Part shown: piece after piece, positions 1 to 42,348 of the stretch
Position numbering within the stretch: position 1 is the first letter of the stretch
Layout: each line of letters begins with the position of its first letter
DNA from: Spirulina sp. CCNP1310
GTDB lineage: Bacteria > Cyanobacteriota > Cyanobacteriia > Cyanobacteriales > Spirulinaceae
Reading direction: 5' to 3'
Assembly: GCF_034932185.1 (NCBI RefSeq)
Contig: NZ_JAYGHW010000066.1
Location: 35,180-99,179 of the forward strand
Length of the DNA: 64,000 bases
Notes under the pieces: model-generated
Seen by the model: only the letters and a program-made list of their open reading frames with translations
Database searches by the model: none
What the model was told of the DNA's origin: nothing
Made by a program: the position numbers and the translations under genes

Positions 1-2749
1 CGGGGTCTTCGCCCCCTTCCCCAGTGTTGGATTTGCCGCCGATGCGGTTCATGGCGATCGCCAACGCCTCATGGGTTTCCTTGGAAATAGAGCCGTAGCT
101 CATCGCCCCCGTTTTAAACCGCTTCATGATTGCCTCGATGGGTTCCACCTCCTCCAGGGGGATCGGTTCCCGCTCTTTAAAGGCCAGCAGATCCCGCAGC
201 CGGAATTGCTTTTTGCCTTGATCATTCACCAGAGCGGCGTATTGGCGATAAAGGTTGTAATCCCCTTCCCGCACTGCTTTTTGCAGCAGATGGATCGTTT
301 CTGGTGAGAATAAATGTTCTTCACCATCCTTGCGCCATTGGTATTCGCCCCCCACATCGAGCGTCGGGGTTGAGCCGGGGCGATCGCTAAACCCGCTATG
401 GTGGCGCAACAGGGCCTCAGCGGTAATCACGCCCAAATCCACCCCTTCCAACCGGGAGGCCGTCCAGGAGAAATAGGTATCAACAACGCTGTGGTGCAGA
501 CCAATGGCCTCGAAAATTTGCGCCCCGCGATAGCTCTGGATCGTCGAGATGCCAATTTTGGAGCCGATTTTAATCACGCCCTTCGTAGCCGCTTTGACGT
601 AGTTTTTCACCGCCGTCTTCACTTCCACACCCTTAAGCAATCCTTCCTGAATCAGGTTCTCAATACTGGCAAAGGCCACATAGGGGTTAATCGCACCGCA
701 ACCATAGCCCAACAACACCGCAAAATGATGCACCTCGCGGGGTTCCCCGGATTCGAGGACGAGGCCGACGCGGGTGCGCGTGCCGTTGCGGATCAGGTGG
801 TGGTGGAGGCCCGCCACCGCTAACAGGGCGGGAATGGGGGCATGGCTCTGATCCACGCCGCGATCGCTCAAAATCAGGATATTCTTACCGGCGGCGATCG
901 CCCCATCCGCCGCACTAAACAATTCTGCCATGGAGGATTGTAACCCCTCCACCCCTTGGGCCGCCTCAAACAAAATCGGCAGCGTTTGGGATTGGAAACC
1001 CCGCAAATTCACCCCTTTTAACTGGGACAATTCCGCATTGGTGAGGATGGGGGTGGGGAGTTGGATCAGTTGGCAGCTTTGGGGTTCCGGGTTGAGGAGG
1101 TTGCCCTCGGAGCCGATGGTGGTGACAGCGGAGGTGATGATCGCTTCCCGGATCGAGTCAATGGGGGGATTGGTAACTTGGGCAAAGAGTTGTTGGAAAT
1201 AGTCGTAGAGGAGTTTGGGGCGATCAGAAAGTGCCGCTAAGGGGGTATCCGTTCCCATCGCCCCCACCGCTTCCACGCCATTTTGGGCCATGGGGCTAAT
1301 GAGTAGCCGCAACTCTTCAAACGTGTAACCAAAGGCCTTTTGATGGGCCAACAGTTCAGCCCCCAACGTGGGCGCGGGTTCCGCCGCCGGTAAATCCGCC
1401 AAATCCACCCGGTATTGATTCAACCAATCCCGGTAGGGGTGGGCGCTGGTGATTTCCTGCTTAATTTCTTCATCGGCGACAATTCGCCCCTGCTCCATAT
1501 CGACGAGGAACATCCGCCCCGGTTCGAGGCGACCCTTAAAGGCGACCCGCTCCGGCTCAATGGGCAAGACCCCGGCTTCAGAAGCCATAATCACGAGATC
1601 ATCATGGGTGACGTAGTAACGGGAAGGGCGCAGACCGTTGCGATCCAATACTGCCCCCATCATCGTCCCATCGGTGAAGGCAATGGAAGCGGGGCCATCC
1701 CAAGGTTCCATCAAGCAGGCGTGGTATTCATAAAATGCCTTACGCTCATCGCTCATCGATTCATGGGCGGCCCAGGGTTCCGGGATCATCATCATCATTG
1801 CATGGGGCAAGGAGCGACCGGCCAGGGTCATCAATTCCAGCGTGTTATCGAAAATGGCGGAATCACTGCCGTCCATATCGATGATCGGCTGCATGGCCTT
1901 GAGGCTATCGCCAAACAGTTCCGAGGCAAAGAGGCTTTGGCGGGCGTGCATCCAGTTGATATTGCCCCGCAAGGTGTTGATTTCCCCATTGTGGGCGATG
2001 TAGTGGTAGGGGTGCGATCGCTCCCAACTGGGGAAGGTATTCGTGCTGAAGCGGGAATGCACCAACCCCAACGCACTGGTAAACCGTTCATCACTCAAAT
2101 CGGGGAAATAGCTGCGCACTTGGGGGGGGGTGAGCATCCCCTTATAAACAATCGTGCGGCTGGAAACGCTGGTGGAATACCAATATTCATCGATACCGGA
2201 GCGTTGAATTTCATGGTGCGATCGCTTACCAATCACATATAACTTGCGCTCAAACCCCAAATCATCAGCAATCTTGGGATTGCGGGCAATAAACACCTGT
2301 TGGATAAACGGCTCACTATCCCGCGCCGTCTGGCCTAAATCGCCATGATCCGTCGGCACATCGCGCCAACCGAGGATCGTTTGCCCCTCTTCTGTGGCAA
2401 TTTTTTCGAGAATTTCCCGGCCCCGTTGACGGATCGCGGGATCAGGGTTGGCAAAAAACATCCCTACGCCGTAATGGCCCGGAGCCGGGAGCGTGATCCC
2501 CTGTTCCTGGGCCGCCCCCTGGAGAAAATCATGGGGGAGTTGGGTGAGAATCCCCGCCCCGTCTCCCGTGTTGGGTTCTGCCCCGACGGCCCCCCGATGT
2601 TCGAGGTTGACCAAAATCGTCAGGGCCTGATCAACAATGGCGTGCGATCGCACTCCCTTCATCTGCACGATGAACCCAACCCCGCAGGCATCATGCTCTA
2701 GCTGTGGATCGTACAAGCCCTGTTGCTGTGGTCGTTTGATGTTAGTCAT
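1..2749 (-). CDS. gltB: Glutamate synthase large subunit, N-terminal part. The gene start is in the window; the 3' part lies beyond the window start.
   Basis: The minus-strand frame is open from the ATG (rc of cat at 2747-2749) to the window edge. The N-terminus reads [33 protein letters not shown], which contains the Ntn-amidotransferase Cys1 start (CGVGF) typical of GOGAT. It is missing from the ORF track because it runs off the edge. The plus-strand ORFs 398..823 and 1415..2242 are antisense artifacts. Confidence 0.85.
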
Positions 2750-3303
2750 GGATGCAATTCGTGAAGGGAAACAGTGAGTCGCGCAAGCAGAGATACAGTC
2801 TGAGTTTTAGAATTGTCTCTCTAAAAGCTGGGAAAGGGGATCGTTCTTAATAAAATGATCAAATCAAGTTGCATGGATCTGTAATATTTCGTTGCAGAGT
2901 CCAGCCAAGGTGTCATTGTGAGCAAATGATGACATCAAACCTATACCCAGCTTGAGATTCTCGCATTTTGATTATCAGCAAAAATAGTTTTCTAACTGTA
3001 AAATTGGTCACAAAATTAGATCGATTTTACTGCCAGGATTGCCCCTAAAGGGCCCGGTATCACGATCCTTCCTGCCCCAGTAATCTTGCTCACCCCCAGA
3101 ACATTGGGGAACTGATCGGAGCCTACTCCCAGGGCAAAAAACGAGGAAAACACCAGATTAACGGCGGTGCTTGCGAGGAATTCATCGTTGAATCGCCATC
3201 CTGGGGAAGGATTGCCAGTGATAGCCCACTGCTCTGGGGCAAATCTTGATTTAGACTGGGGTTAGCTGAGAATTTTGGTTAAACAAAAAAATTTAAGTAA
3301 ACG

Positions 3304-4125
3304 TTGATGAAGCGGGAGAGAACTATGACTGGCCAACCCTCTGTAAACCCCAGAGCCGATGCGGCTGCGATGGCCCCTAAGCCTGAGCGAGAAGCAATGA
3401 TCATTGCCCGGGATGTGGAAAAGTGGTACACCAGCAATCAATTCCATGTGTTGCGGGGGGTGAGTCTCACGGTGCGCCGGGGGGAGGTGGTGGTGATTAT
3501 GGGGCCATCAGGATCGGGAAAATCAACGTTTATCCGCACGTTTAACGCCCTCGAACCTTACCAGAAGGGGCGGATCACCATTGATGGCATTGAACTCTCC
3601 CACGATTTGAAAAATATTGATGCCATCCGTCGGGAAGTGGGGATGGTGTTTCAACAGTTTAACCTGTTTCCCCATTTGAGCGTGTTGCAAAATGTCACCC
3701 TCGCCCCCATTTGGGTGCGTCGTCGCAAAAAAGCCGAAGCAGAGGCGATCGCCCTCCAACTTCTTGAAAAAGTCGGCATCTTAGAACAGGCCCGCAAGTT
3801 TCCGGGGCAGCTTTCCGGGGGGCAACAGCAACGGGTGGCCATCGCCCGCGCCCTAGCCATGCAGCCGAAAATCATGCTTTTTGATGAACCCACCTCAGCC
3901 CTGGATCCGGAGATGGTGCGGGAGGTATTGGATACAATGCGATCGCTGGCTAATGATGGTATGACCATGGTTTGTGTCACCCATGAAGTGGGGTTTGCGC
4001 GGGAAGTCGCGGATCGGGTGGTGTTGATGGCCGATGGGGAACTGGTGGAGGAAGCCACGCCCACGGAATTTTTCACCAATCCCCGCCATGAACGCAGTAA
4101 GCAATTCCTTTCGCAAATTCTCTAA
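3304..4125 (+). CDS. Polar amino acid (glutamine-type) ABC transporter ATP-binding protein.
   Basis: Walker [13 protein letters not shown] signature [15 protein letters not shown], Walker [12 protein letters not shown]. An alternative start exists at 3325 (MTGQP). Confidence 0.85.
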
Positions 4126-4310
4126 ACCCTGTAGGGAGGCAACCACCTAAGGAGGGATAGTACTGCCTGGGCAGATCGCAGCAGCGGATTACTGGGCAGA
4201 GCCAAGTTACGCGGTTAGGAGCGAAAATCTTTTGATCCTGATACCCTTAAAAAAAGTGAGATAATAGGACTCAATTTCCCACCTTTTTTTTCTGGGAATA
4301 AAGGAGTTTC

Positions 4311-5159
4311 TTGATGTTGCTTCAATTTTTTGCGGGATTACAGCGACGTTTTCGGTTCACCCACCCATCGCGCTCTCTAGTGGCGGGAATTTTGTGTCTA
4401 GTGAGTGTGGTCGGTTGCGGTGTTGAAGCGGAAAGTATGGCCGCAATTGATGATACTGGAGATCTCCATCTCACCTATGGAAAAGCGAAAGGAGAAGAGT
4501 TTAAACGCATTCGCACCGCTTTGGAAGAAACGGGCTTTTTTGATGATCTCGTTGACCAGTTAAATGAAAAACTCGCCTTTCCCAATGACATTAATATTGT
4601 CTTTACCAATTGTGGTGTGGCTAACGCCTTCTATAGCCCTAGCGATCTTGAGATCACGATGTGCTATGAATTGATTGCTTACTATTTACAAATTTTTGAG
4701 GAAAATATCGAAACGGAGGAGGATTATCAAGCTGAAGTGATTGATGCTACATCCTTCACCTTTTTTCATGAATTGGGCCATGCGTTTGTGGATCAATATG
4801 AATTACCAATTACTGGCAATGAAGAGGATGCAGCGGATAATTTTGCAACGATTATTATGTTGGATGTCTATGGCGATGATCTGGGGGTGATTAGTGGGAT
4901 GTTCCAATTTGATGCTGAAGCGATGGAAGAAATGGAAAACCCCGAAGATCTCGCCTATTGGGGTGAACATTCCTTAAGCACCCAACGGTATTACAACACC
5001 GCTTGTTTAATTTATGGTAGCGATCCTGAAAGCTTTAGCTTCATTGTTGAGGATGAATATTTACCAGAGGAACGGGCCGAACGTTGTGAATCCGAATATG
5101 AGCAGAAATCGGCAGCTTGGTGGACTTTGATGGAGCCGTTTTTAAAGGAGGAAATTTAA
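4311..5159 (+). CDS. Putative zinc-metallopeptidase-like lipoprotein (DUF4344-like, HExxH).
   Basis: The N-terminal signal peptide has a lipobox-like VVGC. An FFHELGHAF HExxH motif is present, followed by acidic D/E-rich repeats. Confidence 0.55.
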   Translation: MMLLQFFAGLQRRFRFTHPSRSLVAGILCLVSVVGCGVEAESMAAIDDTGDLHLTYGKAKGEEFKRIRTALEETGFFDDLVDQLNEKLAFPNDINIVFTNCGVANAFYSPSDLEITMCYELIAYYLQIFEENIETEEDYQAEVIDATSFTFFHELGHAFVDQYELPITGNEEDAADNFATIIMLDVYGDDLGVISGMFQFDAEAMEEMENPEDLAYWGEHSLSTQRYYNTACLIYGSDPESFSFIVEDEYLPEERAERCESEYEQKSAAWWTLMEPFLKEEI

Positions 5160-5165
5160 CCTAAA

Positions 5166-5816
5166 ATGATTCGCCTGTTGATTGTAGATGATCAATCCAT
5201 TATTCGGGAGGGCTTGAAAAGTTTGCTCCAAGCACAACCGGATTTAGCGGTGGTGGGGTTGGCGGAACAGGGTCAGGCGGGGGTGGAGCAGGCGATCGCC
5301 CTTCAGCCTGATGTTGTCCTGATGGATATCCGGATGCCGGTCATGGATGGCGTGGCAGCAACCCGCGCCCTTCTCGCACAAGAGCCGGAGATGAAAATCT
5401 TGATCCTCACCACCTTTGATGATGATCAACTGGTGAGTCAGGCGATCCGAGCAGGGGCCAAGGGCTATCTGCTCAAGGACACTCCCTCAGAGGAGTTGGC
5501 GGAAGCGATCCGGGCGGTACAACGGGGCTATGGTCATTTGGGGCCGGGCCTCTTGGCGAAAATTATTGCTACACCGCCCCCGCCCCCTGCACCGGAGCCG
5601 CCGCCGGAGTTGGCCCAACTCACCCCCCGTGAGTTAGAAGTGTTGAACCTATTGGGGGAGGGGTTGAGCAATCGGGAAATTGCCGAGCAGTTGTATATTT
5701 CGGAGCGGACGGTGAAAAATCATGTGACGCATATTTTAGGGCGGCTCCAGTTGCGCGATCGCACCCAAGCCGCCCTGTTTGCGGTGCAATTTGCTAAACC
5801 CCTACCCCCGAACTGA
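5166..5816 (+). CDS. Two-component response regulator, NarL/FixJ (LuxR HTH) family.
   Basis: REC domain (LIVDDQ...DVVLMDIRMP...KGYLLKD), a proline-rich linker PPPPPAPEPPPE, and a C-terminal LuxR HTH (LTPRELEVLNLLGEGLSNREIAEQLYISERTVKNHV). Confidence 0.9.
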   Translation: MIRLLIVDDQSIIREGLKSLLQAQPDLAVVGLAEQGQAGVEQAIALQPDVVLMDIRMPVMDGVAATRALLAQEPEMKILILTTFDDDQLVSQAIRAGAKGYLLKDTPSEELAEAIRAVQRGYGHLGPGLLAKIIATPPPPPAPEPPPELAQLTPRELEVLNLLGEGLSNREIAEQLYISERTVKNHVTHILGRLQLRDRTQAALFAVQFAKPLPPN

Positions 5817-6927
5817 GCAGCATGGTTAATCGCTGGCTCAGTTGGGCTTTGCCGAAATGGGCGATCGCCTCTTGGCGCAACCAAGCCCCCTGACAGCGTT
5901 GATCTTCCCCCTGGAGCATGGCAATACAACCTTGGGCGATCGCCTCCACATTGCGATGCTCCACCTGCCACCCTAGGCGGCCATCCTGTAAGGGATCAGC
6001 GGAGCCATCCCCCAACCCTGATAAAACAGGGATACCGCTGGCCATGGCTTCGAGGTACACAATGCCAAACCCCTCCTGAGAGGGCATTGCATAGGCATCG
6101 GCAACGCGGTAATGGGCAGGTAATTCTGCCGTGGGGACATAGCCCGCAAAAATAACGCGATCGCTCACCCCCAAATCCGCCGCCAACTGAGCCAACCGAG
6201 GCTGATCCCCCCCCCGACCAATGACTAAATATTTCACCTCAGGAATAGCCGCAGCAATCAGGGGTAGGGCTTGAATCATCACATCCACCCCTTTATAAAT
6301 GTCTTCAGGCCAAAGGCGAGCCACGGTCCATAATACCTTAGATCCAGCTAACTGATAGCGGTCTAACAATGCCGCCGGTTTAGGCCCTGGAGTAAACTCC
6401 GCTTCATCCACCACACAGGGCAGGAATTGCACCCGTTCCGGGGGAATTTGGTAAGCCCCACAGAGGCGATCGCGGCTATGGCGACTAATGGCCCACACCT
6501 GATCCGCCCCCCGCAGGCCGCGAATTTCCCAAGGGGAGAGATATTCCCAATTTCCCCACACCTCTTTCCCGTAGGTCATTAAGGTATAGGGAATTTTCAG
6601 CAATTTGCAGTAGAGATACACCAAGGGGGCCAGCTTCACATGGCCACAGATCACCCTTTCCGGTCGTTCAAAGAGTAGGGATTGGAGTAAATGTTGGGCT
6701 AAACGGGCGCGTTCCATTGTTCGCGATTCATGGCCCAAATAGGTAAACGTCAGTTGTGGTGAATCGAGGGGATTATCAGCCGGATGCTGATCATGGAGCA
6801 ACGCCACCGTCCCCCGGCAACCCCGTTCCTTCGCCCAATCCCCATAGGCGGCCAACACATCCATCACATAGGATTGAATCCCACCTTCGCGGCTGAATAA
6901 TTCTAAAAAAGCAAAGTAATGGCTCAT
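5794..6927 (-). CDS. Glycosyltransferase family 4 (GT1 fold).
   Basis: EGFGIVYLEAMASGIPVL E-x7-E-type motif, 377 aa. The 3' end overlaps the convergent response regulator by about 22 bp. Confidence 0.8.
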   Translation of the reverse strand: MSHYFAFLELFSREGGIQSYVMDVLAAYGDWAKERGCRGTVALLHDQHPADNPLDSPQLTFTYLGHESRTMERARLAQHLLQSLLFERPERVICGHVKLAPLVYLYCKLLKIPYTLMTYGKEVWGNWEYLSPWEIRGLRGADQVWAISRHSRDRLCGAYQIPPERVQFLPCVVDEAEFTPGPKPAALLDRYQLAGSKVLWTVARLWPEDIYKGVDVMIQALPLIAAAIPEVKYLVIGRGGDQPRLAQLAADLGVSDRVIFAGYVPTAELPAHYRVADAYAMPSQEGFGIVYLEAMASGIPVLSGLGDGSADPLQDGRLGWQVEHRNVEAIAQGCIAMLQGEDQRCQGAWLRQEAIAHFGKAQLSQRLTMLLSSGVGV

Positions 6928-6977
6928 AGTGGGGGGCGATTTTCAATAGTCGTTGGCGTATAATTTTCGCGAATTGT

Positions 6978-7008
6978 TGGCGTAGGGGCGAAAAATTTTT
7001 CGCCCTAA
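6978..7008. repeat. Dispersed palindromic repeat, copy a (TGGCGTAGGGGCGAAAAATTTTTCGCCC-TAA), slightly degenerate.
   Basis: It shares the core GGGGCGAAAAATTTTTCGCCCC with seven other loci in the window. It forms the left boundary of the AT-rich island. Confidence 0.8.
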
Positions 7009-7382
7009 CCTTCAGGTTTAAGGTTAAGCCTCAGGTTCAATCCCCAAGGCTCGCAGTTGTGCCGTCAGCAGTAGCAACCATGGCATCATTAGAGAACATC
7101 TGCTCACCATTCTAGCCTGTTATCTCCGGCCTGTCCCCACGCTTTCATCTGTGATGGGGCAAGCTTGCTAAAATATCCCAGGATTACAAAAAAGAGCTAC
7201 AATAAAATTATTGTTTTTTTGTATCAATACAAAAGTATTGCTATGGGAAGATTTTGGGCAGGAATAGTTTATCGAATTTACCTTTGGGTTTGTTGTATGA
7301 GACTTTCTTCTCTCAATGAGTTGTTAAACTCTTCCTCGCTTTTAGTTTTGTACCGTTAAAAAGAAAAGAGGTAAAAGCTTTT

Positions 7383-7811
7383 ATGCGTAATAAAGTTGTT
7401 GCTATCCTTCTCACATTTTTTCTGGGTTGGTTCGGAGTTCATCAGTTTTATCTGGGCCAGAATGTTCGTGCTTTTTTTTATCTTATCTTTTGCTGGACTT
7501 GGATTCCTGCTCTCCTTTCCATTTTTGACTTCGTTGGACTTTTGTTGATGTCGGAGGAAGATTTTGAGCGACGTTTCAACGATGGAAAACGTGGCAAAGC
7601 CGGACAAGCCGCACTGCCTAGCCGTAAACTTCAACAACGTCTCCTCAAAGTTTGCAAGGAATACCGAGGTGCAACTCTTAGCGATTGTGTCATTGAAACT
7701 GGAGCCGACTTGGAAGAAGTGAAGATGATCCTGGATCGCTTTGCTCGGCAAGGTCTTGTGAGCGTCGAAAACCGAATACACGACGGTGCTGTAATCTATA
7801 AAACCATATAA
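7383..7811 (+). CDS. TM2-domain membrane protein with a C-terminal soluble (winged-helix-like) domain.
   Basis: The N-terminus has two TM helices with the TM2/NINE-like motif FFLGWFGVHQFYLGQ. The C-terminal 80 aa are charged (LLKVCKEYRGATLSDCVIETGADLEEVKMILDRFARQGLV). The gene lies in a low-GC region. Confidence 0.6.
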   Translation: MRNKVVAILLTFFLGWFGVHQFYLGQNVRAFFYLIFCWTWIPALLSIFDFVGLLLMSEEDFERRFNDGKRGKAGQAALPSRKLQQRLLKVCKEYRGATLSDCVIETGADLEEVKMILDRFARQGLVSVENRIHDGAVIYKTI

Positions 7812-7855
7812 AAATTTGTTGCCAAGACATAAAGTGTCAAGAAATAGGCTATTAA

Positions 7856-7900
7856 ATACCCCTCTTATATCTAGATTGAGAGAAGAGGGGTATTTACATT
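7856..7900 (+). terminator. Intrinsic terminator-like hairpin downstream of the TM2 gene.
   Basis: ATACCCCTCTT-N16-AAGAGGGGTAT is a perfect 11-bp stem with an internal TCTAGA, followed by TTTACATTTCT. Confidence 0.5.
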
Positions 7901-7954
7901 TCTGCCTAAATTCAAAACAACTCTAAATGGTTCAGCGTAATGATTGCACAACTA

Positions 7955-7991
7955 GTTGTCACTTGACAACCAATGATTTTAGGTTTACATT
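7955..7991 (+). promoter_or_regulatory. Putative sigma70-type promoter (TTGACA-17-TACATT) overlapped by the inverted repeat GTTGTCA-N2-TGACAAC (candidate operator).
   Basis: A perfect -35 TTGACA sits at 7963-7968 and TACATT at 7986-7991. The AAGG RBS lies 6 nt before the ATG at 8009. The palindrome 7955-7970 overlaps the -35. Confidence 0.45.
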
Positions 7992-8008
7992 TAAAAGTAA
8001 AGGCTGAC

Positions 8009-8266
8009 ATGGGTAGACGATCTCATCCAAAACAAGAGGTTGAGGCTGCGCTAAAGTATGCTGAACAAAATGGCTGGCGCGTTGATGTGGGTGGATCACA
8101 CGCTTGGGGTAAAATCTACTGCCCCTATAACGATCAGGAATGCAGATGTGGCAACTTTTGTATATCCAGTGTTTGGAGTACTCCAAAAAATGCCGGAAAT
8201 CACGCGAGGCAGATTCGTCAAGTAGTCGATAACTGTATAAGATATAACCGCGAAGAGGAAAAATAA
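8009..8266 (+). CDS. HicA-like (YcfA fold) small protein with a Cys-rich insertion; putative toxin of a TA-like pair.
   Basis: KQEVEAALKYAEQNGWRVDVGGSHAWGKIYCP matches the HicA pattern (hydrophobic-x2-L-x3-G[FW]-x5-GSH-x5-P). The distal PKNAGNHARQIRQVV resembles the HicA C-terminus. There is a CPYNDQECRCGNFC insert. The ORF-track start at 7973 would lie inside the predicted promoter, so the ATG at 8009 is preferred. Confidence 0.45.
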   Translation: MGRRSHPKQEVEAALKYAEQNGWRVDVGGSHAWGKIYCPYNDQECRCGNFCISSVWSTPKNAGNHARQIRQVVDNCIRYNREEEK

Positions 8267-8269
8267 GCA

Positions 8270-8797
8270 ATGAAAGAGTATGATTTTACATTGAAATTTA
8301 GTATTGGGAATTTCCCAATTGACCCTGATAGCTATGTTGAGGCTTTATACACAGGTGGTTGTGATGATGCTTTGATTGGAGTTGGTAAAAAAGGATATCT
8401 TTCACTCAATTTTATTCGAGAAGCATCATCAGCCTATGACGCTATTTCTACTGCTATTGCTGATGTTAAAAATGTAATTCCATCTGCAAACTTGATTGAA
8501 GCAGCACCAGATTTTGTCGGATTGACAGATGTAGCCAAAATTATTGGCTGCACTCGACAAAATATCAGAAAGCTCATTGTTGAAAGTGAGCCAAGATCCT
8601 TACTTCCTATTTATGAAGGTACACCCTCAATTTGGCATTTAGCGGAAATCCTAGCTTGGTTGCGAGAATTCAAGACATATTCCATTGATGATTCATTAAT
8701 GGAGATTGCCAAAGCTAATATGGACATTAATATTGCGAAAAGCTGGCAGAAAGTAGCGCCAACTGCTCAAGAAAAAATTCAGCGTCTTGCTTTGTAA
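8270..8797 (+). CDS. N-domain + helix-turn-helix DNA-binding protein; putative antitoxin/regulator partner.
   Basis: It starts 3 nt after the upstream stop. The N-terminal ~90 aa contain GGCDDALIGVG. The central HTH is LTDVAKIIGCTRQNIRKLI (AlpA/MerR-like). Confidence 0.5.
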   Translation: MKEYDFTLKFSIGNFPIDPDSYVEALYTGGCDDALIGVGKKGYLSLNFIREASSAYDAISTAIADVKNVIPSANLIEAAPDFVGLTDVAKIIGCTRQNIRKLIVESEPRSLLPIYEGTPSIWHLAEILAWLREFKTYSIDDSLMEIAKANMDINIAKSWQKVAPTAQEKIQRLAL

Positions 8798-8822
8798 GAT
8801 GGAATCCAGTTGTATCCCTGAT

Positions 8823-8854
8823 TGGCGTGGGGGCGAAAAATTTTTCGCCCCTAC
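8823..8854. repeat. Dispersed palindromic repeat, copy b (TGGCGTGGGGGCGAAAAATTTTTCGCCCCTAC).
   Basis: Full-length copy. It forms the right boundary of the AT-rich island. Confidence 0.85.
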
Positions 8855-8890
8855 TGGGGATTTTGCTGATCTTTTGAGACGGGTTATTTT

Positions 8891-8950
8891 AGCCCCCTTA
8901 AAGATAAACCCCTCGCCCAAGGAGGGGAGGGGCTTTGGGTTTTTGATTTT
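8891..8950 (+). terminator. Hairpin plus T-tract, possible terminator.
   Basis: AGCCCC...CCCCTC-gcccaag-GAGGGG-AGGGGCT followed by TTGGGTTTTTGATTTT. Confidence 0.3.
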
Positions 8951-8995
8951 ATACCTTTGCGATAGTCAGCGGACTGAAGTCCTGAGGATGAACGC

Positions 8996-9319
8996 TTAGG
9001 AAGCTAAGGCGACTTCAACCATTTGTTGGAGTTCGCCACTTTGGTAAAGCTCGATCAGGATATCGGAACCGCCTAAAAATTCCCCGTTGAGATAAACTTG
9101 GGGGATGGTGGGCCAGTTGGAATATTCCTTGATGCCTTGGCGGACTTCGGGATCAGAGAGGACATCGAAGGTGGTGAAGGGTACACCGCAAATGTTGAGA
9201 ATTTGCACAACATTGTTAGAAAAACCGCATTGGGGCATTAACTTGGAACCCTTCATAAACACAACGATTTTATCTTGTTGTACGAGGTCGTCAATGCGTT
9301 TTTGGACTTCTGGAGTCAT
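8996..9319 (-). CDS. grxD: Monothiol glutaredoxin (Grx4/GrxD type, CGFS).
   Basis: The CGFS active site lies in ...[17 protein letters not shown]... The protein is 107 aa with a C-terminal [19 protein letters not shown]. Confidence 0.92.
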
Positions 9320-9372
9320 GGTGATTTAGGGGGTAGTAGAACAGGAAAAAGGAAAGATGTTGGTTTGAAAAG

Positions 9373-9627
9373 TTAGGCGTTGGCGATCGCCCAACTATCC
9401 GGGGTATAGGTTTTCAAGGCCAGGGCGTGGATGGCTTCAGTGGCTAGGGCTTCTTGTAAAGCACCGTAGACCATCTGATGCTGCTTAACGCGGGTCTTCC
9501 CTTCAAATGCGGTGGAAATAACCGTCGCTTGAAGATGATCCCCGCCGCCGGTCAAGTCCTCAACGGTGACTTGGGCATCGGGCAATTGGGCCTTAATCAT
9601 GGATTCAACTTGGTCTAGGCTCACCAT
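9373..9627 (-). CDS. bolA: BolA family protein.
   Basis: 84 aa with a BolA-like fold signature (...[31 protein letters not shown]...). It lies immediately upstream of the CGFS Grx on the same strand, the classic BolA-Grx pair. Confidence 0.8.
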
Positions 9628-9714
9628 AGGTCAGTTTACAAAGGGGTCTTCAAACATAAACTTGATTTTAACGCTCTGTTCCCCATTCAGGGGATGGTTG
9701 TCAGTAGGATTGGC

Positions 9715-10794
9715 TTAATCCGCAAAACCCAGTTCCACCAATTGCTGGAAGGCTCGCTCGCCAAGGCCGTTGGTGGGATTTTGCGATCGCACGATCTGGA
9801 TCAACAAGGGAACCGAGAGTTCCGGCTGATTTTGGGCGCGGTGAACGAGGGCCAATTGATAGGTGGTTTGATCCCGCAGTTGAGCACTGTCAAGGGCTTT
9901 TTGTCGCTGATCTTGGGCAACTTCGCGATCAATGCCAGAAAAGGTTTCGGAAAGTTGCTGATGGAAATTAGAGAGTTGATTAAACACTTGCCGGGCTTGC
10001 TGAAACTTGTTCTGGGCTTGGTTGTAGTCCCCGGCATTGACCGCCGCTTCTGCTTCACGGATCAAGTTTTGGCCGCCTTCAAAGCTGAGTAATGTGGGGG
10101 TTGCTTCCGGGATAATTTGGGCAAAATCGCCAGTGGGTTGCACAAAACCAAACCGCACCAATTGTTCATGGGCTTGGCGACCGAGGGGGGTGGTGGGATT
10201 TTGCGATCGCACAATTTGGATCAGCAACGGAATGGATAAATCCGTCCGGCCTTGGGCATGGTGGGCTAAAGCCAGTTCATAGGTGGATTGATCCCGCAGT
10301 TGGGCGGTTTCGAGGGCCTGTTGCCGTTGCTGGGCAGCGCGGCGGCTGTTAATGCCCGCAAAACTGCCGGAGAGTTGTTGATAAAAATTGGAAAGTTGGT
10401 TAAAGACTTGGCGGGTAGCTTGGAGCTTTTCCACCGCTAGGTCATAGTTGCCTTGGGCGCTGGCGTTGCGCCCCGCTTCCAGTAATGCCATGCCGCCGGG
10501 CATACTTAAAACACTGCTGCTTTGTTGCAAAATCCGGGGATCTTCGACAGCAAAGGGATCTGGCTCAGGGTTCGATAATTCTTGGGCTTGAACCCCCCCA
10601 GGAAGTCCTAGGGTTAAAACCGTCAAACTGGCCAACATCAGGGGGTGGATAATCTGCTTGAATCTCATTGAAGCCCTCAGACCCATTCCTAAAAACAGTA
10701 AAATTGATTGCAATCGTTTCCTACGATACCCTGTTTCAGACATAATTCTTAAAAAAAAGTTCTGTACTGGTGATGATCGCTCCGCCATGGTCAC
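9715..10794 (-). CDS. Secreted hypothetical protein with an internal ~150-aa tandem duplication.
   Basis: It has a signal peptide (LASLTVLTLGLPGGVQA). Two repeats share RQVFNQLSNF(Y/H)QQLS...AQLRDQ(S/T)TY(E/Q)LAL...(I/V)PLLIQIVRSQNPT...LG...QL(V)(R/E)(F/L)GF. Confidence 0.6.
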   Translation of the reverse strand: MTMAERSSPVQNFFLRIMSETGYRRKRLQSILLFLGMGLRASMRFKQIIHPLMLASLTVLTLGLPGGVQAQELSNPEPDPFAVEDPRILQQSSSVLSMPGGMALLEAGRNASAQGNYDLAVEKLQATRQVFNQLSNFYQQLSGSFAGINSRRAAQQRQQALETAQLRDQSTYELALAHHAQGRTDLSIPLLIQIVRSQNPTTPLGRQAHEQLVRFGFVQPTGDFAQIIPEATPTLLSFEGGQNLIREAEAAVNAGDYNQAQNKFQQARQVFNQLSNFHQQLSETFSGIDREVAQDQRQKALDSAQLRDQTTYQLALVHRAQNQPELSVPLLIQIVRSQNPTNGLGERAFQQLVELGFAD

Positions 10795-10930
10795 GAATCC
10801 CGGAGAAGCAACCCGTTGAGGCGATCGCCGATTTTTTCCACTCCCCGTGATGGGTTGGCCCAGATCCCATCTGCCACAACCTTGGGGGATTGGGTATTCT
10901 GGAAAGGATCCGTGCTTGCTCGCCCCCGTT

Positions 10931-13900
10931 ATGGCCTACACCGTTAGCGAAATTCAAAGCTTTCTGACTGCTCAAACCCCCTTAGGGATGTTGCCACCAG
11001 GGGCGATCGCCGCTGTTTTAGGGCGGATGCGGCCCTTTCGCTATCGCATGGGTCAAACCCTGTTGGTACGAGACAAGATCCCCCATCAGGTGGTGATTTT
11101 GTATGAGGGACAGGTGCGGCTGATTGGCTATGATCCCACAACGAAAATGCCCCTAACGCTGCAACTGCTCCAACCGGGGGACATGATCGGCTGGGTGAGT
11201 TTGCTGCGGGGCATTCCTTGCGAAACGGCGATCGCCTCCACGGAAACCGTCGCCATTACCCTTGGGGCCGAGGAATTTTTCGCCGTCCTCCAGCGTTTCC
11301 CCGATGTGGCGGCTCAATTTCATCAAGGGACGGCGATCGCTGAAGTCTTCGACCTCCTCTCCCGTCAAACCCTCCCCAACCTCAAAGACAGTAATGCCCT
11401 CAAGGAATGGGTGCAAAATGCTGCCAACCATGCCCAAGTTTGTAGCCTGCCCCCCGGTCGTCACCTCCTCCAAGACGAACCCGCCCGCATCCTCCAATAC
11501 CCTAATCTCGTTTGGTTTGTCAGCGGTGGCGGCCAAGTCACCCACTTTAAACCCGGCTATCCCATCAGCCTCGACCCCCAACAACGGAGCCTAGAGGTGG
11601 TGGGGGAATATCCTGCCCGGCTAATCGGCATTCAAGCCGCCGACCTCCTCCCCGTTGCCATTGCGGACACTTTCGCCGATCCCGATACCGTCCAACTATC
11701 ACCAGAGCCAGCAGAAATTCCCTACGCCGCCGAATTGGAAACCGTTGACGCGCCCACCCCCCCCAGCGCCGCCCCGAAGCCCAACCGCCAAGATTATCCC
11801 CTCGTTAAGGGGCGATCGCAACTCGATGCAGCGGTGGCCTGTTTCCAGATGTTGAGCCAATATTTTCGGATGCCCTTCCGTCGGGATGTGATTGAGCGGG
11901 TGTTAGGGGATCAACTGCGGCGACAGGGGAGCTTATCCCTCTATAACTGTGGCTCGGTGGCGGAACTCATGGGATTAACGGCGCAATTGGTGAATATTCC
12001 CGCTTCTGCGTTAACGCGATTACAGGGGCCGGCCTTGGTGCAGTGGCAAGACCGGCTGGCGGTACTCTATGAAATTAGTGATCAGGAGTTGGTGATTGGT
12101 GCGCCGGAGGTGGGGATTCTACGGCGCAAGCCCAAGGATTTCCTTGAAGCCTGGGATGATGTGGGCCAGGTGGTGCTGTTGCAACCCTCGAAATATACCC
12201 CCCAGGAACGCTTTGGTCTCAGTTGGTTTTGGCCGGTGTTATGGAAATATAAGGGCGTGTTAACAGAAGTATTTATCGCTTCCTTCTTTGTGCAACTTTT
12301 TGCCCTCGCTAATCCCCTAATTATTCAAGTAATCATCGATAAGGTCATTGTCCAAAATAGTACGGAAACGCTGCAAGTTTTGGGGTTTTTCCTGCTAGGG
12401 GTGGCGATTTTTGAATTTATCCTCAGTACGGTACGCACCTATCTGTTTGTGGATACCACAAACCGCATTGATATGAGCTTGGGGTCAGAAATCATTGATC
12501 ACCTGCTGCGATTACCCCTGAGTTATTTTGACCGTCGCCCGGTGGGGGAACTGTCCAGCCGCATTAATGAGTTGGAAAATATCCGTACATTCTTAACCGG
12601 AACCGCCTTAACAGTGGTTTTAGATGCGGTTTTTTCGGTGATTTATATTGCCGTGATGTTCTTTTACAGTTGGCGGCTGTCACTGTTGGGGCTGGCCATT
12701 GTGCCAATTTTCATTATCACGACACTGATTTTTTCCCCCTTAATCCGCCATCAACTGCGGATCAAGGCGGAACGCAACGCTGAAACCCAATCTCATCTGG
12801 TGGAGGTGGTTTCGGGGATTCAAACGGTGAAGGCGCAAAATATTGAGTTGCGATCGCGCTGGCGGTGGCAAGAACATTACGCCCGCTACGTTTCCGCCGG
12901 GTTTAAAACCGTGCAGACTTCAACCCTAGCGAATTCTGCCAGTAATTTCCTCAATAAAATTTCTGGCCTGTTGGTGCTGTGGGGTGGGGCCTATTTGGTG
13001 TTACAGGGGGATCTGAGTTTAGGGCAGTTAATTGCCTTTCGGATCATTGCCAGCTATGTCACTAGTCCCCTATTACGGTTGGCGCAACTGTGGCAAAACT
13101 TCCAAGAGGTGGGGCTATCTTTGGAGCGGTTGGGGGATATTTTAGATAGTCCTCAGGAAGGGGAAGCGGATCAGGGGAATATCCCGATGCCATCGGTGGT
13201 GGGGGCGGTGAAATATGAAAATGTTTCTTTCCGGTTTAAACCCAATGGGCCGCTGCAATTGGTGAATGTTAACCTTGATATTCCGGCGGGGAGTTTTGTC
13301 GGGGTGGTGGGGAAAAGTGGGGCGGGCAAAAGTACGCTGACGAAATTGCTCGTGCGTTTATACGATTGGGAAACGGGGCGGATTTTGCTCGATGGTTACG
13401 ATGTGGCCAAGGTGGAGCTTTATTCCCTGCGGCGACAAATCGGGGTTGTACCCCAAGAGCCATTATTATTTGATGGCACGATTCAGGAAAATATCGCCCT
13501 CAATAACCCCGAAGCCTCTAGTGAGGAGATTATCGAGGCGGCAAGGGTGGCGGCGGCCCATGATTTTATTATGGAGTTGTCCAGTGGCTATAACACGCGG
13601 GTGGGGGAGCGGGGGGCGAGTTTGTCGGGGGGACAACGGCAACGGATTGCGATCGCCCGCACCGTGTTGCAACGCCCTGCCTTTCTGATTTTGGATGAAG
13701 CCACCAGCGCCCTCGATTACCCCACGGAGCAGCAGGTTTGTAGTAATTTAGCCCAAGCCTTTCGCGATCGCACCGTCATTTTCATCACCCACCGTTTAGG
13801 AACAGTTCAGGGGGCGGATCAAATTGTGATGATGGACAGCGGCGCGGTGGTAGAAGTGGGAACCCACGCGGAACTGATCGCCCTCGAAGGTCGCTACTTC

Positions 13901-13936
13901 GCCCTCTACCGCCAACAGGATGCCCGCCAAGCCTGA
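10931..13936 (+). CDS. ABC exporter with an N-terminal cyclic-nucleotide-binding domain and a C39-like (catalytic Cys absent) peptidase-like domain; type I secretion/bacteriocin-exporter family.
   Basis: cNMP domain (GQTLLVRDK...GEEFF). The C39-like region has QLDAAVACFQML in place of the canonical Q-x4-DCG. Six TM helices follow, then Walker A GKSGAGKST, signature LSGGQRQRIAIAR and Walker B LILDEATSALD. The ORF-track start at 10847 is possible, but the ATG at 10931 (MAYTVSEIQ) leaves a more plausible divergent intergenic region. Confidence 0.85.
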   Translation: MAYTVSEIQSFLTAQTPLGMLPPGAIAAVLGRMRPFRYRMGQTLLVRDKIPHQVVILYEGQVRLIGYDPTTKMPLTLQLLQPGDMIGWVSLLRGIPCETAIASTETVAITLGAEEFFAVLQRFPDVAAQFHQGTAIAEVFDLLSRQTLPNLKDSNALKEWVQNAANHAQVCSLPPGRHLLQDEPARILQYPNLVWFVSGGGQVTHFKPGYPISLDPQQRSLEVVGEYPARLIGIQAADLLPVAIADTFADPDTVQLSPEPAEIPYAAELETVDAPTPPSAAPKPNRQDYPLVKGRSQLDAAVACFQMLSQYFRMPFRRDVIERVLGDQLRRQGSLSLYNCGSVAELMGLTAQLVNIPASALTRLQGPALVQWQDRLAVLYEISDQELVIGAPEVGILRRKPKDFLEAWDDVGQVVLLQPSKYTPQERFGLSWFWPVLWKYKGVLTEVFIASFFVQLFALANPLIIQVIIDKVIVQNSTETLQVLGFFLLGVAIFEFILSTVRTYLFVDTTNRIDMSLGSEIIDHLLRLPLSYFDRRPVGELSSRINELENIRTFLTGTALTVVLDAVFSVIYIAVMFFYSWRLSLLGLAIVPIFIITTLIFSPLIRHQLRIKAERNAETQSHLVEVVSGIQTVKAQNIELRSRWRWQEHYARYVSAGFKTVQTSTLANSASNFLNKISGLLVLWGGAYLVLQGDLSLGQLIAFRIIASYVTSPLLRLAQLWQNFQEVGLSLERLGDILDSPQEGEADQGNIPMPSVVGAVKYENVSFRFKPNGPLQLVNVNLDIPAGSFVGVVGKSGAGKSTLTKLLVRLYDWETGRILLDGYDVAKVELYSLRRQIGVVPQEPLLFDGTIQENIALNNPEASSEEIIEAARVAAAHDFIMELSSGYNTRVGERGASLSGGQRQRIAIARTVLQRPAFLILDEATSALDYPTEQQVCSNLAQAFRDRTVIFITHRLGTVQGADQIVMMDSGAVVEVGTHAELIALEGRYFALYRQQDARQA

Positions 13937-13937
13937 T

Positions 13938-13960
13938 GGTGAAAATTTTTCGCCCCTATT
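13938..13960. repeat. Dispersed palindromic repeat, copy c (partial: GGTGAAAATTTTTCGCCCCTATT).
   Basis: The 3' arm is intact and the 5' arm is truncated. It begins at the stop codon of the ABC exporter. Confidence 0.7.
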
Positions 13961-13990
13961 GTTCAGGAGGCAGAGCCTCCGCAGGTGCAT

Positions 13991-14092
13991 GACTTGGCAG
14001 AGCCAAGTCACGAGGGATTCCCATTCCCTATTGCCCGTTCCCTGTTCCCTGTTCCCCATTCCCCGTTCCCCATTCCCCATCTTCCCCACCCC
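13991..14092. repeat. Hairpin (GACTTGGC-AGA-GCCAAGTC) followed by an array of ~9 heptamers (consensus CCC[A/G]TTC), STRR-like.
   Basis: CCCATTC CCTATTG CCCGTTC CCTGTTC CCTGTTC CCCATTC CCCGTTC CCCATTC CCCATCTTCCCC. The ORF-track ORFs 13796..14089 and 14028..14309 are artifacts of this repeat. Confidence 0.8.
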
Positions 14093-14119
14093 ATGCTATA
14101 GTAGAAAAGCTTAATTTTT

Positions 14120-14193
14120 CGGGATGTGGCGCAGCTTGGTAGCGCACTTCGTTCGGGACGAAGGGGCCGCTGGTTCGAATCCAGTCATCCCGA
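14120..14193 (+). tRNA. tRNA-Pro (anticodon CGG).
   Basis: Acceptor CGGGATG/CATCCCG with discriminator A. D arm GCGCAGCTTGGTAGCGC. Anticodon stem CTTCG/CGAAG with loop TTCGGGA. T arm GCTGGTTCGAATCCAGT. The 3' CCA is not encoded. Confidence 0.85.
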
Positions 14194-14227
14194 TTTGCCA
14201 AGAGCGAATCTAGTTGTATAGTTGATC

Positions 14228-14259
14228 TGCCTGGGGGCGAAAGATTTTTCGCCCCTACA
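14228..14259. repeat. Dispersed palindromic repeat, copy d (TGCCTGGGGGCGAAAGATTTTTCGCCCCTACA).
   Basis: Core conserved with one substitution. It shares the upstream flank TTGATCTGC with copy g. Confidence 0.85.
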
Positions 14260-14438
14260 TCATTTATCCCCCTGGCCAACGGGTGGAAACGTGCGATCGC
14301 CTCACCCACCTCGATGGGGAAACCCTTTTACCCGGTTTAGTCCTCCCCCTGATCTCGTTGTGGGCCTAGGGGCAACCATTCCAGCCAGAAAAGAGAATAT
14401 GTTAACTTGGCCGAAACGGCCGGAATTTCTCTTTCTCC

Positions 14439-14891
14439 TTGGCGATCGCCCCTATGTTTAGCCCCACCCTCCTTTGGTTCATTGCGGGAGCCATCCTCTG
14501 TTTTATGGAGGTGGTATTTCCCACCGCCTTTGTGGAATTCATCATGGGTTTAGCAGCCATCGGCGTGGGGTTGCTTGCCTTCATCCTGCCCTTTTTACCC
14601 TTTCCCGCCCAAGTTCTGCTCTGGCTTGTCTTCACCACGGGGGGGATCATCTTCTCCCGGCGGTCTTTCACCCCCAAGCGGCGATCGCGCTTATTAGAAG
14701 ATTCCCGCCAAGGTCGCACCCTCACCCCCATTGCGCCCGGTGAACTGGGGCGCGTCGTTTGTGATGGCAACTCCTGGCAAGCGCGGTGTGAAGATGAAAC
14801 CTTAGCCATGAATGCCAATACGCCGGTTTTTATTGTCCGCCGCGAAGGTAACACGTTAATTGTGCTGCCCCAATCCGTAATTCAGCCCTAA
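14439..14891 (+). CDS. NfeD-family membrane protein (SPFH partner).
   Basis: N-terminal multi-TM region and a C-terminal OB-fold-like soluble domain (GELGRVVCDGNSWQARCED...PVFIVRREGNTLIV). It is followed 40 bp later by the SPFH gene. Confidence 0.75.
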   Translation: MAIAPMFSPTLLWFIAGAILCFMEVVFPTAFVEFIMGLAAIGVGLLAFILPFLPFPAQVLLWLVFTTGGIIFSRRSFTPKRRSRLLEDSRQGRTLTPIAPGELGRVVCDGNSWQARCEDETLAMNANTPVFIVRREGNTLIVLPQSVIQP

Positions 14892-42201: not shown

Positions 42202-42348
42202 ACATTGAAAATTGTTCGATGGGATTCAAAACCCAAGCCCATTATCATCAATCATGATCAGGGTGATCTCCATCTCGATTAGCAATAATCAGATCTTGGA
42301 GGATAGTTGATTGAGTTAAAAATTCGGTTCAGTTAAGGATTTGAGGTT

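What the first reader, a model, noticed from the sequence alone, without database searches (positions are those of the whole stretch)
6978..8854. AT-rich, HIP1-free ~1.8 kb island bracketed by two same-orientation copies of a palindromic repeat
Between the repeat copies at 6978-7008 and 8823-8854 the sequence drops to roughly 30-40% GC, against ~55% elsewhere. I found no GCGATCGC (HIP1) octamer in the island, whereas flanking DNA has one every few hundred bp. The island carries three genes of a kind unrelated to their housekeeping neighbours: a TM2-domain protein, a HicA-like Cys-rich protein and an N-domain+HTH protein. Each has its own hairpin terminator or promoter. It sits between a glycosyltransferase and the BolA-Grx operon. 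This is the signature of a recently acquired cassette, and a TA- or defence-like function is plausible. Insertion may be mediated by, or targeted to, the palindromic repeat.
Basis: seen in the sequence. Interest (0 to 1): 0.72.

Follow-up and report, generated by a model that had tools for sequence, protein, structure and literature searches.

The report
Acquired AT-rich islet with toxin-antitoxin-like pair
The AT-rich stretch is real, strain-specific foreign DNA in a Spirulina genome, made of a membrane-protein gene plus a compact, self-regulated two-gene module already catalogued as an untested phage-defence candidate (PDC-M06); the flanking palindromes are ordinary genome-wide repeats, not insertion scars.

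Summary
Window 7139-8905 has 0.40 GC against 0.52 and the most deviant tetranucleotide usage in the 64 kb. It lies in the longest HIP1 gap, though lack of HIP1 alone is not significant. The window is Spirulina sp. CCNP1310. Its sister genome, Spirulina sp. DLM2.Bin59, is syntenic on both sides but lacks all three genes. There it carries an intact Uma2-family gene (reduced to a remnant at 7024-7138 here) and a different 326-bp AT-rich piece.

The islet is a mosaic, not one cassette. The TM2 gene (7383-7811) occurs alone elsewhere. The 860-bp unit 7940-8797 (promoter, conserved operator, gene A of 85 aa, gene B of 175 aa) recurs with sharp ends in unrelated contexts in many cyanobacteria. A and B match PADLOC PDC-M06A/B (E 3e-48 and 5e-68), an untested candidate.

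A models as an alpha-beta-beta-beta-alpha fold weakly resembling HicA. B has a ferredoxin-like domain plus an excisionase-type winged helix. My best mechanism is an autoregulated type II toxin-antitoxin or abortive-infection module; that step is inferred.

The palindromic repeat is a dispersed family with 7 copies in the window. The left copy is ancestral and lies 130 bp outside the junction, so repeat-mediated insertion is not supported. This is a new member of a known kind, of modest interest.

The parts
6977..7008 (.). Left copy of the dispersed palindromic repeat (core GTAGGGGCGAAAAATTTTTCGCCC). It is ancestral, not an insertion scar.
   Evidence: It is conserved at the orthologous position in sister genome L010 (7136-7168).
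7024..7138 (-). Remnant of a Uma2-family (putative restriction endonuclease) gene plus its upstream region. 673 bp of the gene interior are deleted relative to the sister genome.
   Evidence: Window 6803-7067 matches L010 7318-7078, and window 7067-7138 matches L010 6404-6333. The L010 ORF 6372-7121 matches Pfam Uma2 at 1.5e-8.
7139..8905 (.). Strain-specific AT-rich segment (1767 bp, GC 0.396). It is absent from the syntenic site of Spirulina sp. DLM2.Bin59.
7383..7811 (+). TM2-domain membrane protein with an uncharacterised C-terminal domain of about 85 aa. It is an independent cargo gene.
   Evidence: Pfam TM2 at 1.8e-16. Full-length homologues (67-77% identity) are solitary genes in Roseofilum and Prochlorothrix. 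Nucleotide homology is limited to 7361-7810.
7853..7896 (+). Strong hairpin after the TM2 stop codon. It is terminator-like.
   Evidence: Inverted repeat I2. Fold energy -28 kcal/mol, z = -5.2.
7940..7954 (+). 5' edge of the 860-bp A-B unit (7940-8797; PADLOC PDC-M06): the first bases shared with the cassettes of other genomes, just upstream of the operator.
   Evidence: blastn matches of 72-90% to L052, L053, L001, L006 and L005 begin at 7940-7955 and end at 8774-8798. Flanks are unrelated.
7955..7970 (.). Putative operator. It is the inverted repeat GTTGTCA-CT-TGACAAC, which contains the -35 TTGACA.
   Evidence: It is identical in 11 loci holding A-B cassettes whose coding DNA is only 72-90% identical. 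It occurs once in the window, with none expected by chance. An analogous GTTGACA-GA-TGTCAAC lies upstream of the phage Cyrano homologue.
7971..7991 (+). Rest of the sigma-70-like promoter of A-B: 17-nt spacer and -10 TACATT (7986-7991). The -35 TTGACA (7963-7968) lies inside the operator.
   Evidence: 10 of 12 consensus positions; site 7963-7991.
8009..8266 (+). Gene A: an 85-aa Cys/His-rich protein, the putative HicA-like toxin (PDC-M06A).
8270..8797 (+). Gene B: a 175-aa protein, the putative antitoxin/repressor (PDC-M06B). It has an N-terminal ferredoxin-like domain and a C-terminal excisionase/AlpA-type winged HTH.
8798..8857 (.). Right copy of the host's dispersed repeat in its extended ~60-nt form (match to the 14200 copy starts at 8796, overlapping the B stop codon; core 8827-8854). 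It abuts the B stop codon and, with its flanks, forms a terminator-like hairpin.
   Evidence: Window 8796-8854 matches 14200-14258 at 83%. Alignment. It is absent from L010 and from other A-B loci. Fold energy -33.1 kcal/mol, z = -4.2, followed by AUUUUG.
8909..8927 (-). Terminator hairpin of the grx-bolA operon. Homology to the sister genome resumes at 8906.

Best explanation
The stretch is a small, strain-specific mosaic islet (7139-8905) in a variable intergenic site of Spirulina sp. CCNP1310, between a GT4 glycosyltransferase and grx-bolA. It combines at least two independently acquired units.

Unit 1 is a TM2-domain membrane protein gene with its own terminator hairpin.

Unit 2 is an 860-bp self-contained module (7940-8797) that matches PADLOC candidate PDC-M06. 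I infer that it works as an autoregulated type II toxin-antitoxin or abortive-infection pair:
- Protein B (ferredoxin-like domain plus winged HTH) binds the conserved inverted repeat overlapping the -35 box and represses the operon.
- B's N-domain neutralises protein A, a small HicA-like, probably metal-binding RNA-targeting toxin. A's invariant His31 sits where the catalytic His of HicA sits.
- Loss of B, through phage attack or loss of the module, would free A and stop growth.

The palindromic repeats belong to a dispersed host repeat family that punctuates intergenic regions. The right copy probably serves as the A-B terminator. The repeats are not the agents or scars of the insertion.

Shown: composition, absence from the sister genome, the breakpoints, the module limits, the HMM matches and operator conservation. 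Inferred: toxicity, neutralisation, operator binding and any defence role.
For: - Foreign composition.
- The sister genome L010 is syntenic from window 1 to 14545 except for discrete indels, and lacks TM2, A and B.
- A-B homology in five other genomes starts about 70 bp before A and ends at the B stop codon.
- A-B sits in unrelated contexts: Dam MTase|AB|SmpB; Uma2|AB|SNF2; a toxin-antitoxin/IS110/NACHT islet; and inside the cpe cluster next to an AAA_15 ATPase pair and PemK.
- A-B is AT-rich in hosts of about 51% GC (0.39 and 0.425).
- PADLOC matches at 2.8e-48 and 4.6e-68.
- PDC-M06 is defined in Payne et al., bioRxiv 10.1101/2024.01.29.577857, as cassette CAS_00046, untested.
- The operator is invariant in 11 loci, and an analogous one exists in phage Cyrano.
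- The Cyrano homologues (A 39% identity, E 3e-15) are annotated HicA/HicB and expressed in lysogeny.
- The repeat family is dispersed and brackets a housekeeping operon.
Against: - The HicA link is weak. There is no Pfam HicA_toxin hit for A, and only 1 of 71 relatives reaches E 0.047.
- No HicA chain appears in HMM searches of PDB.
- Foldseek finds nothing at E < 1.
- hhalign probability is only 10-33% over 21-30 columns.
- B is not a HicB. Its N-domain is ferredoxin-like, not the HicB fold, and its model has moderate confidence (pLDDT 68.5).
- A is unusually conserved for a toxin: 65-83% identity across phyla.
- No experiment on toxicity or defence exists for this family.
- With only one close relative, gain here cannot be separated rigorously from loss or replacement in the sister.
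Confidence: 0.6

Rival explanations
1. Repeat-mediated insertion. The three genes entered as one cassette by recombination or transposition at the palindromic repeat, leaving one copy at each end.
For: Two copies, 97% identical over 29 nt, flank the genes. The sister genome has a single copy at this site. Repeat copies differ in presence or absence between the sisters elsewhere, and one sits at another indel junction at 14200-14261. So the repeats are associated with rearrangements in general.
Against: - The left copy is 130 bp outside the left junction, with ancestral Uma2-remnant DNA in between.
- The right copy is about 50 bp inside the right junction.
- TM2 and A-B are separate units.
- A-B cassettes elsewhere lack the repeat at their ends.
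- The family has 7 copies in 64 kb and brackets a normal operon with similar spacing of 1696 bp.
- No recombinase or transposase lies in or beside the islet.
Confidence: 0.08
2. The segment is ancestral and was lost or replaced in the sister. The TM2-A-B segment would be an older resident of the lineage, and DLM2.Bin59 replaced it with other DNA.
For: Only one close genome is available. Both genomes carry different AT-rich DNA at the same point, so replacement in either direction is possible. The Uma2 gene is intact in the sister and decayed here, which shows that events occurred on this lineage too.
Against: GC3 of 0.26-0.39 against 0.52-0.64 and the most deviant tetranucleotide usage in the window argue against long residence. 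The nearest A-B relatives (83-90% nucleotide identity) sit at other loci, including in a repeat-sharing relative, L001. More distant Spirulina genomes are not syntenic here and cannot decide the question.
Confidence: 0.12
3. A-B is a regulatory pair from a mobile element, not a toxin-antitoxin or defence system. B would be an AlpA/excisionase-type transcription factor or recombination directionality factor, and A a small metal-binding cofactor or anti-repressor.
For: B matches phrog_2620 'excisionase and transcriptional regulator' (2e-15), and sources name it AlpA or CP4-57 regulatory. Homologues sit in the replication/recombination region of SSU5-like phage-plasmids. A is very conserved, which is unusual for toxins. 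The HicA evidence is weak.
Against: Here and in most cyanobacterial loci there is no integrase or element for B to regulate. The pair travels as a minimal autoregulated unit and clusters with toxin-antitoxin and defence genes. It was recovered embedded in BREX, DISARM or type I RM systems. This behaviour is typical of addiction or defence modules.
Confidence: 0.2

Closest known systems
PADLOC phage defence candidate PDC-M06 (Payne et al. 2024, bioRxiv 10.1101/2024.01.29.577857; cassette CAS_00046, FAM_01986>>FAM_01364)
   Same: Both proteins match the PDC-M06A and PDC-M06B HMMs nearly end to end (E 2.8e-48 and 4.6e-68). Gene order and strand are the same, and the genes are adjacent.
   Different: There is no structural difference. 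PDC-M06 itself is an untested prediction made by 'guilt by embedding'. Here the pair is not embedded in BREX, DISARM or RM but sits between housekeeping genes.
HicAB type II toxin-antitoxin systems (e.g. PDB 6g26, 5yrz, 4p78, 1whz)
   Same: - Toxin-first bicistronic operon with a 3-nt gap.
- A small alpha-beta-beta-beta-alpha protein.
- A G-(G/S)-H motif between beta1 and beta2, aligned with the catalytic His of HicA.
- A downstream two-domain DNA-binding partner.
- A palindromic operator over the promoter.
   Different: - No Pfam HicA_toxin or HicB match.
- A carries a 14-residue Cys-rich insertion between beta2 and beta3 and a longer C-terminal helix.
- B's N-domain is ferredoxin-like (beta-alpha-beta-beta-alpha-beta), not the HicB fold.
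- B's DNA-binding domain is excisionase/MerR-like rather than RHH or Xre.
CYRAN_51/CYRAN_50 of Escherichia phage-plasmid Cyrano, and SSU5_055/054 of Salmonella phage SSU5
   Same: These are homologous pairs (A 39% identity, E 3e-15; B 27-33% identity). They have the same order and an analogous inverted-repeat operator containing TTGACA. They are annotated HicA/HicB and transcribed during lysogeny.
   Different: They are distant in sequence, and their A lacks most of the Cys cluster. They are carried on a phage-plasmid, where a plasmid-addiction role is the natural reading. They too are untested.
Dispersed short palindromic intergenic repeats of bacteria (REP/MITE-like elements)
   Same: The repeat is a 28-nt palindrome, GTAGGGGCGAAAAATTTTTCGCCCCTAC, sometimes with a shared 5' extension of about 30 nt. 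It has many intergenic copies, forms a hairpin, is shared with related genomes, and varies in presence between sister genomes.
   Different: I did not match it to a named family; Rfam has no hit. No associated transposase was identified, and its mobility is inferred only from presence/absence differences.

Membership tests
PADLOC PDC-M06 | Protein matching the PDC-M06A HMM | tested here: met
   E 2.8e-48, residues 1-84 on profile positions 1-84 of 91.
PADLOC PDC-M06 | Protein matching the PDC-M06B HMM | tested here: met
   E 4.6e-68, residues 1-173 on profile positions 1-172 of 174.
PADLOC PDC-M06 | The two genes are adjacent on one strand, A before B | tested here: met
   A is 8009-8266 and B is 8270-8797, both on the + strand. 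The cassette is written FAM_01986>>FAM_01364.
PADLOC PDC-M06 | Protects against phage | not testable with these tools
   The authors list it among 145 untested candidates. No paper mentions PDC-M06.
HicAB type II toxin-antitoxin | Toxin matches the HicA_toxin family (Pfam PF07927) | tested here: not met
   No hit at E <= 0.1. Only 1 of 71 family members hits, at E 0.047. No HicA chain appears in PDB HMM searches.
HicAB type II toxin-antitoxin | dsRBD-like alpha-beta-beta-beta-alpha fold of the toxin | tested here: inconclusive
HicAB type II toxin-antitoxin | Catalytic His in a G-S-H motif before beta2 | tested here: inconclusive
   His31 is invariant in the close family and at least 90% conserved in the broad one. 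hhalign places GGSH on HicA GSH at probability 10% and 33%.
HicAB type II toxin-antitoxin | Antitoxin with a HicB N-terminal domain | tested here: not met
   No Pfam HicB hit. The model's N-domain is beta-alpha-beta-beta-alpha-beta and matches HMA/ACT-type ferredoxin folds.
HicAB type II toxin-antitoxin | Toxin arrests growth and the antitoxin neutralises it | not testable with these tools
   This needs expression experiments.
Integrative genomic island | Integrase, recombinase or transposase in the element | tested here: not met
   Only TM2, A and B are credible genes in 7139-8905, and none is a recombinase.
Integrative genomic island | Direct repeats (att or target duplication) exactly at both junctions, or insertion at a tRNA | tested here: not met
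   The junctions are at 7138/7139 and 8905/8906, while the repeat copies are at 6977-7008 and 8796-8857. The nearest tRNA is at 14119.
Dispersed palindromic repeat family (REP/MITE-like) | Many similar copies in intergenic DNA, forming a hairpin | tested here: met
   There are 7 copies in 64 kb with none expected by chance. Copies also occur in L010 and L001. Hairpin z-scores are -3.4 to -4.2.

The most novel reading that the evidence does not exclude
PDC-M06 could be a distinct, still undescribed toxin-antitoxin/defence family. It would pair a HicA-derived toxin that has gained a Cys4-type metal knuckle with a new kind of antitoxin (ferredoxin-like neutralising domain plus excisionase-type HTH). 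It is unusually conserved (65-83% identity from cyanobacteria to proteobacteria). It moves as a sharply delimited 860-bp unit without any recombinase, which would point to an unknown way of relocating, for example capture at recombination-prone intergenic sites next to Uma2 genes and dispersed palindromes.
Probability: 0.2. Interest if true: 0.55.

Novelty: new member of a known kind. Interest (0 to 1): 0.3.

Why it matters
The case shows, with base-pair junctions, how small toxin-antitoxin or defence cassettes accumulate at variable intergenic sites of cyanobacterial genomes without any dedicated integration machinery. It gives the untested PADLOC candidate PDC-M06 a concrete, testable anatomy: the exact limits of the unit, the promoter, an invariant operator, a candidate catalytic His31, a Cys cluster, and the domain layout of the partner protein. 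It also corrects a tempting but wrong inference, that flanking palindromes equal insertion scars, which would mislead automated island calling in repeat-rich cyanobacteria. For biology at large this is an ordinary piece of the flexible genome.

Tried and rejected
- Rfam (E-value mode on 5.5-10.5 kb, gathering mode on the whole window) and ARAGORN found no RNA gene in or beside the islet.
- NCBIfam gave nothing for the three proteins.
- Pfam gave nothing for A or B.
- PDB sequence and profile searches for A and B found no relatives.
- Foldseek of the A model against PDB found nothing at E < 1.
- Exact-sequence look-ups of the glycosyltransferase and TM2 proteins found no record.
- More distant Spirulina loci could not serve as empty-site controls. 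L008 is not syntenic, with an IscA-like gene upstream of the glycosyltransferase. L009 has only 203 bp upstream.
- The 77-aa ORF in the sister's alternative AT-rich fragment has no Pfam match.
- Literature searches for PDC-M06 returned nothing beyond the defining preprint's supplement.
- I considered the HIP1 gap as independent evidence and rejected it as not significant on its own.
Full report
**The observation**

The sequence at 6978-8854 is as described. GC is 0.40 for 7009-8822 against 0.52 for the window.

In sliding windows the size of the islet, it is among the two lowest in GC (z = -3.4). It is rank 1 of 623 in tetranucleotide distance from the window average (0.451 against 0.256 +/- 0.036). 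Third-position GC is 0.39 for TM2, 0.37 for A and 0.26 for B, against 0.52-0.64 for the neighbouring genes.

There are 99 HIP1 octamers in 64 kb. None lies between 6474 and 9382, which is the longest gap. That alone is weak evidence: 5% of same-size windows have none, and about one gap of this length is expected.

The repeat TTGGCGT(A/G)GGGGCGAAAAATTTTTCGCCC occurs at 6977-7005 and 8822-8850.

Proteins B and TM2 are identical to proteins of Spirulina sp. CCNP1310, on a 99,912-bp contig.

A scan of one genome per species with the glycosyltransferase found one close relative, Spirulina sp. DLM2.Bin59 (locus L010). Its amino-acid identities to the window are 90% for the glycosyltransferase, 97% for Grx and 98% for BolA. 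Gene order is ABC transporter - TPR-like - BolA - Grx - gap - glycosyltransferase, and there is no TM2, A or B.

blastn gives these junctions:

| Window | L010 | Note |
|---|---|---|
| 6803-7067 | 7318-7078 | includes the left repeat copy |
| 7067-7138 | 6404-6333 | |
| 7139-8905 | no counterpart | strain-specific segment |
| 8906-9100 | 6006-5812 | |

L010 has an intact 249-aa Uma2-family ORF between the repeat and the junction (Pfam 1.5e-8). The window keeps only both ends of that gene, having lost 673 bp of its interior.

L010 has its own unrelated 326-bp AT-rich piece (GC 0.377) where the window has the islet. The site is therefore a variable spot that holds different foreign DNA in two sister genomes.

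The other side of the glycosyltransferase also differs. Window 4137-5822 is absent from L010.

**The repeats**

The core occurs seven times in the window. It also occurs in L010 and in metagenomic relatives L001-L004.

One pair, at 14234 and 15930, brackets an ordinary NfeD-SPFH operon at almost the same spacing.

The left copy at the islet is ancestral and sits 130 bp outside the junction. The right copy belongs to the strain-specific DNA. It starts exactly at the B stop codon, in an extended ~60-nt form 83% identical to the copy at 14200.

With its flanks the right copy folds into a -33 kcal/mol hairpin followed by AUUUUG (z = -4.2). It plausibly terminates the A-B transcript.

A-B cassettes in other genomes have no such repeat after B. 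The repeats are therefore not insertion scars. Repeat copies do vary between the sisters, and one sits at another Uma2 deletion junction. A general link with rearrangement remains open.

**The cargo is a mosaic**

*TM2.* Full-length TM2 homologues (67-77% identity) are solitary genes between housekeeping genes in Roseofilum and Prochlorothrix. Nucleotide homology covers only 7361-7810. In Roseofilum the gene has the host's GC. A strong hairpin follows the gene here.

*A-B.* Nucleotide homology to five other loci (72-90%) begins at 7940-7955 and ends at the B stop codon. The pair always has a 3-nt gap and lies in unrelated surroundings:
- Dam methylase | AB | SmpB
- Uma2 | AB | SNF2 helicase
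- a CHAT/TPS region
- an islet with HicB-like genes, IS110 and NACHT
- in Microcoleus, inside the phycoerythrin gene cluster, beside an AAA_15/AAA_21 ATPase pair and a PemK module

A-B is AT-rich in hosts of about 51% GC.

**What A-B is**

PADLOC HMMs PDC-M06A and PDC-M06B match at 2.8e-48 and 4.6e-68. PDC-M06 is one of 145 untested candidates proposed because family members are embedded in BREX, DISARM or type I RM loci. It has 497 instances in RefSeq. No paper reports a test.

B has more than 1600 relatives, nearly all 175 aa long and mostly cyanobacterial.

A has about 700 cluster representatives and is 65-83% identical across phyla. Its invariant residues include H6, E12, W23, G29, H31, C38, C45, C51, WSTP56-59, H65 and D74.

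The A model (pLDDT 83) has the order helix, three strands, helix, with a Cys-rich loop between strands 2 and 3.
- hhalign aligns LKYAEQNGWRV..GGSH with HicA's IRMLEEDGWRLVRVTGSH at probability 10-33%.
- Pfam, PDB HMM searches and Foldseek do not support the link.

The B model (pLDDT 68.5) has a ferredoxin-like N-domain and an excisionase/terminase-small-type winged HTH. It does not have the HicB fold.

Distant homologues occur in SSU5-like phage-plasmids. In phage Cyrano they are annotated HicA/HicB and are transcribed in lysogeny.

**Regulation**

The inverted repeat GTTGTCA-CT-TGACAAC (7955-7970) contains the -35 TTGACA of a good sigma-70-like promoter.

It is identical in 11 loci whose coding DNA has diverged to 72-90% identity. 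The Cyrano pair has an analogous GTTGACA-GA-TGTCAAC. This is the signature of an operator for the HTH protein.

**Mechanism**

My best reading is an autoregulated type II toxin-antitoxin or abortive-infection module. B represses the operon and neutralises A. A, when freed, would act as a HicA-like RNA-targeting toxin using His31.

The architecture and operator are shown. Toxicity, neutralisation, RNA cleavage and phage defence are inferred.

The main rival is that A-B is a mobile-element regulatory pair with no toxin. I rate it at 0.2.

**Verdict**

The islet is real foreign DNA and a correct call as acquired. It has a defence/toxin-antitoxin-like module that is already catalogued, though untested.

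It is not a single cassette, and the palindromic repeat did not insert it.

It is a new member of a known kind, of modest interest. Its value lies in the precise anatomy it gives PDC-M06 and in the documented variable site.

Noticed in passing
window 4137-5822: A second strain-specific segment lies on the other side of the glycosyltransferase. It holds a DUF4344 putative metallopeptidase (4311-5159, GC 0.43, GC3 0.41) and a LuxR-type response regulator (5166-5816). Both are absent from sister genome L010, where the flanks are contiguous.
   Followed up: partly
window 14200-14261; L010 285-834: Downstream of tRNA-Pro the window has only the 62-nt extended palindromic repeat, where the sister genome has about 550 bp of another Uma2-family gene. 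This is a second Uma2 gene intact in the sister and deleted here, this time with a repeat copy at the junction.
   Followed up: partly
window 13941-13960; L010 982-1001: Repeat copies differ between the sister genomes at orthologous intergenic sites: a half copy here against one and a half copies there. This suggests the repeat family is still mobile or recombinogenic.
   Followed up: no
window 6939-6984: A 24-bp tandem duplication (ATTTTCAATAGTCGTTGGCGTA / ATTTTCGCGAATTGTTGGCGTA) lies immediately left of the left repeat copy. It is absent from the sister genome.
   Followed up: no
window 8009-8266: The exact 85-aa A protein is not in the 5.8-billion-cluster protein collection, although B and TM2 from the same contig are. 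The gene is probably unannotated in Spirulina sp. CCNP1310.
   Followed up: partly
L062-L064 (Microcoleus), about 5725-9400 in L062: A-B, an AAA_15/AAA_21 ATPase with a 194-aa partner, and a PemK toxin-antitoxin pair form a small islet inserted inside the phycoerythrin (cpe) gene cluster. This A-B copy lacks the operator palindrome and sits 46 nt after the upstream gene.
   Followed up: partly
window 30769-30843: ARAGORN reports a tRNA with an undetermined two-base anticodon directly upstream of tRNA-Asn. Rfam scores it as an ordinary tRNA at 54.6 bits.
   Followed up: no
L010 5992-6332: The sister genome's alternative AT-rich fragment carries a 77-aa ORF with no Pfam match. It may be a remnant of another small mobile gene.
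   Followed up: partly
window 41850-42800: Another low-GC stretch (minimum 0.37 in 500-bp windows) covers the 3' part of a response-regulator/histidine-kinase gene and the start of a GGDEF-EAL response regulator. It does not look like an insertion.
   Followed up: no
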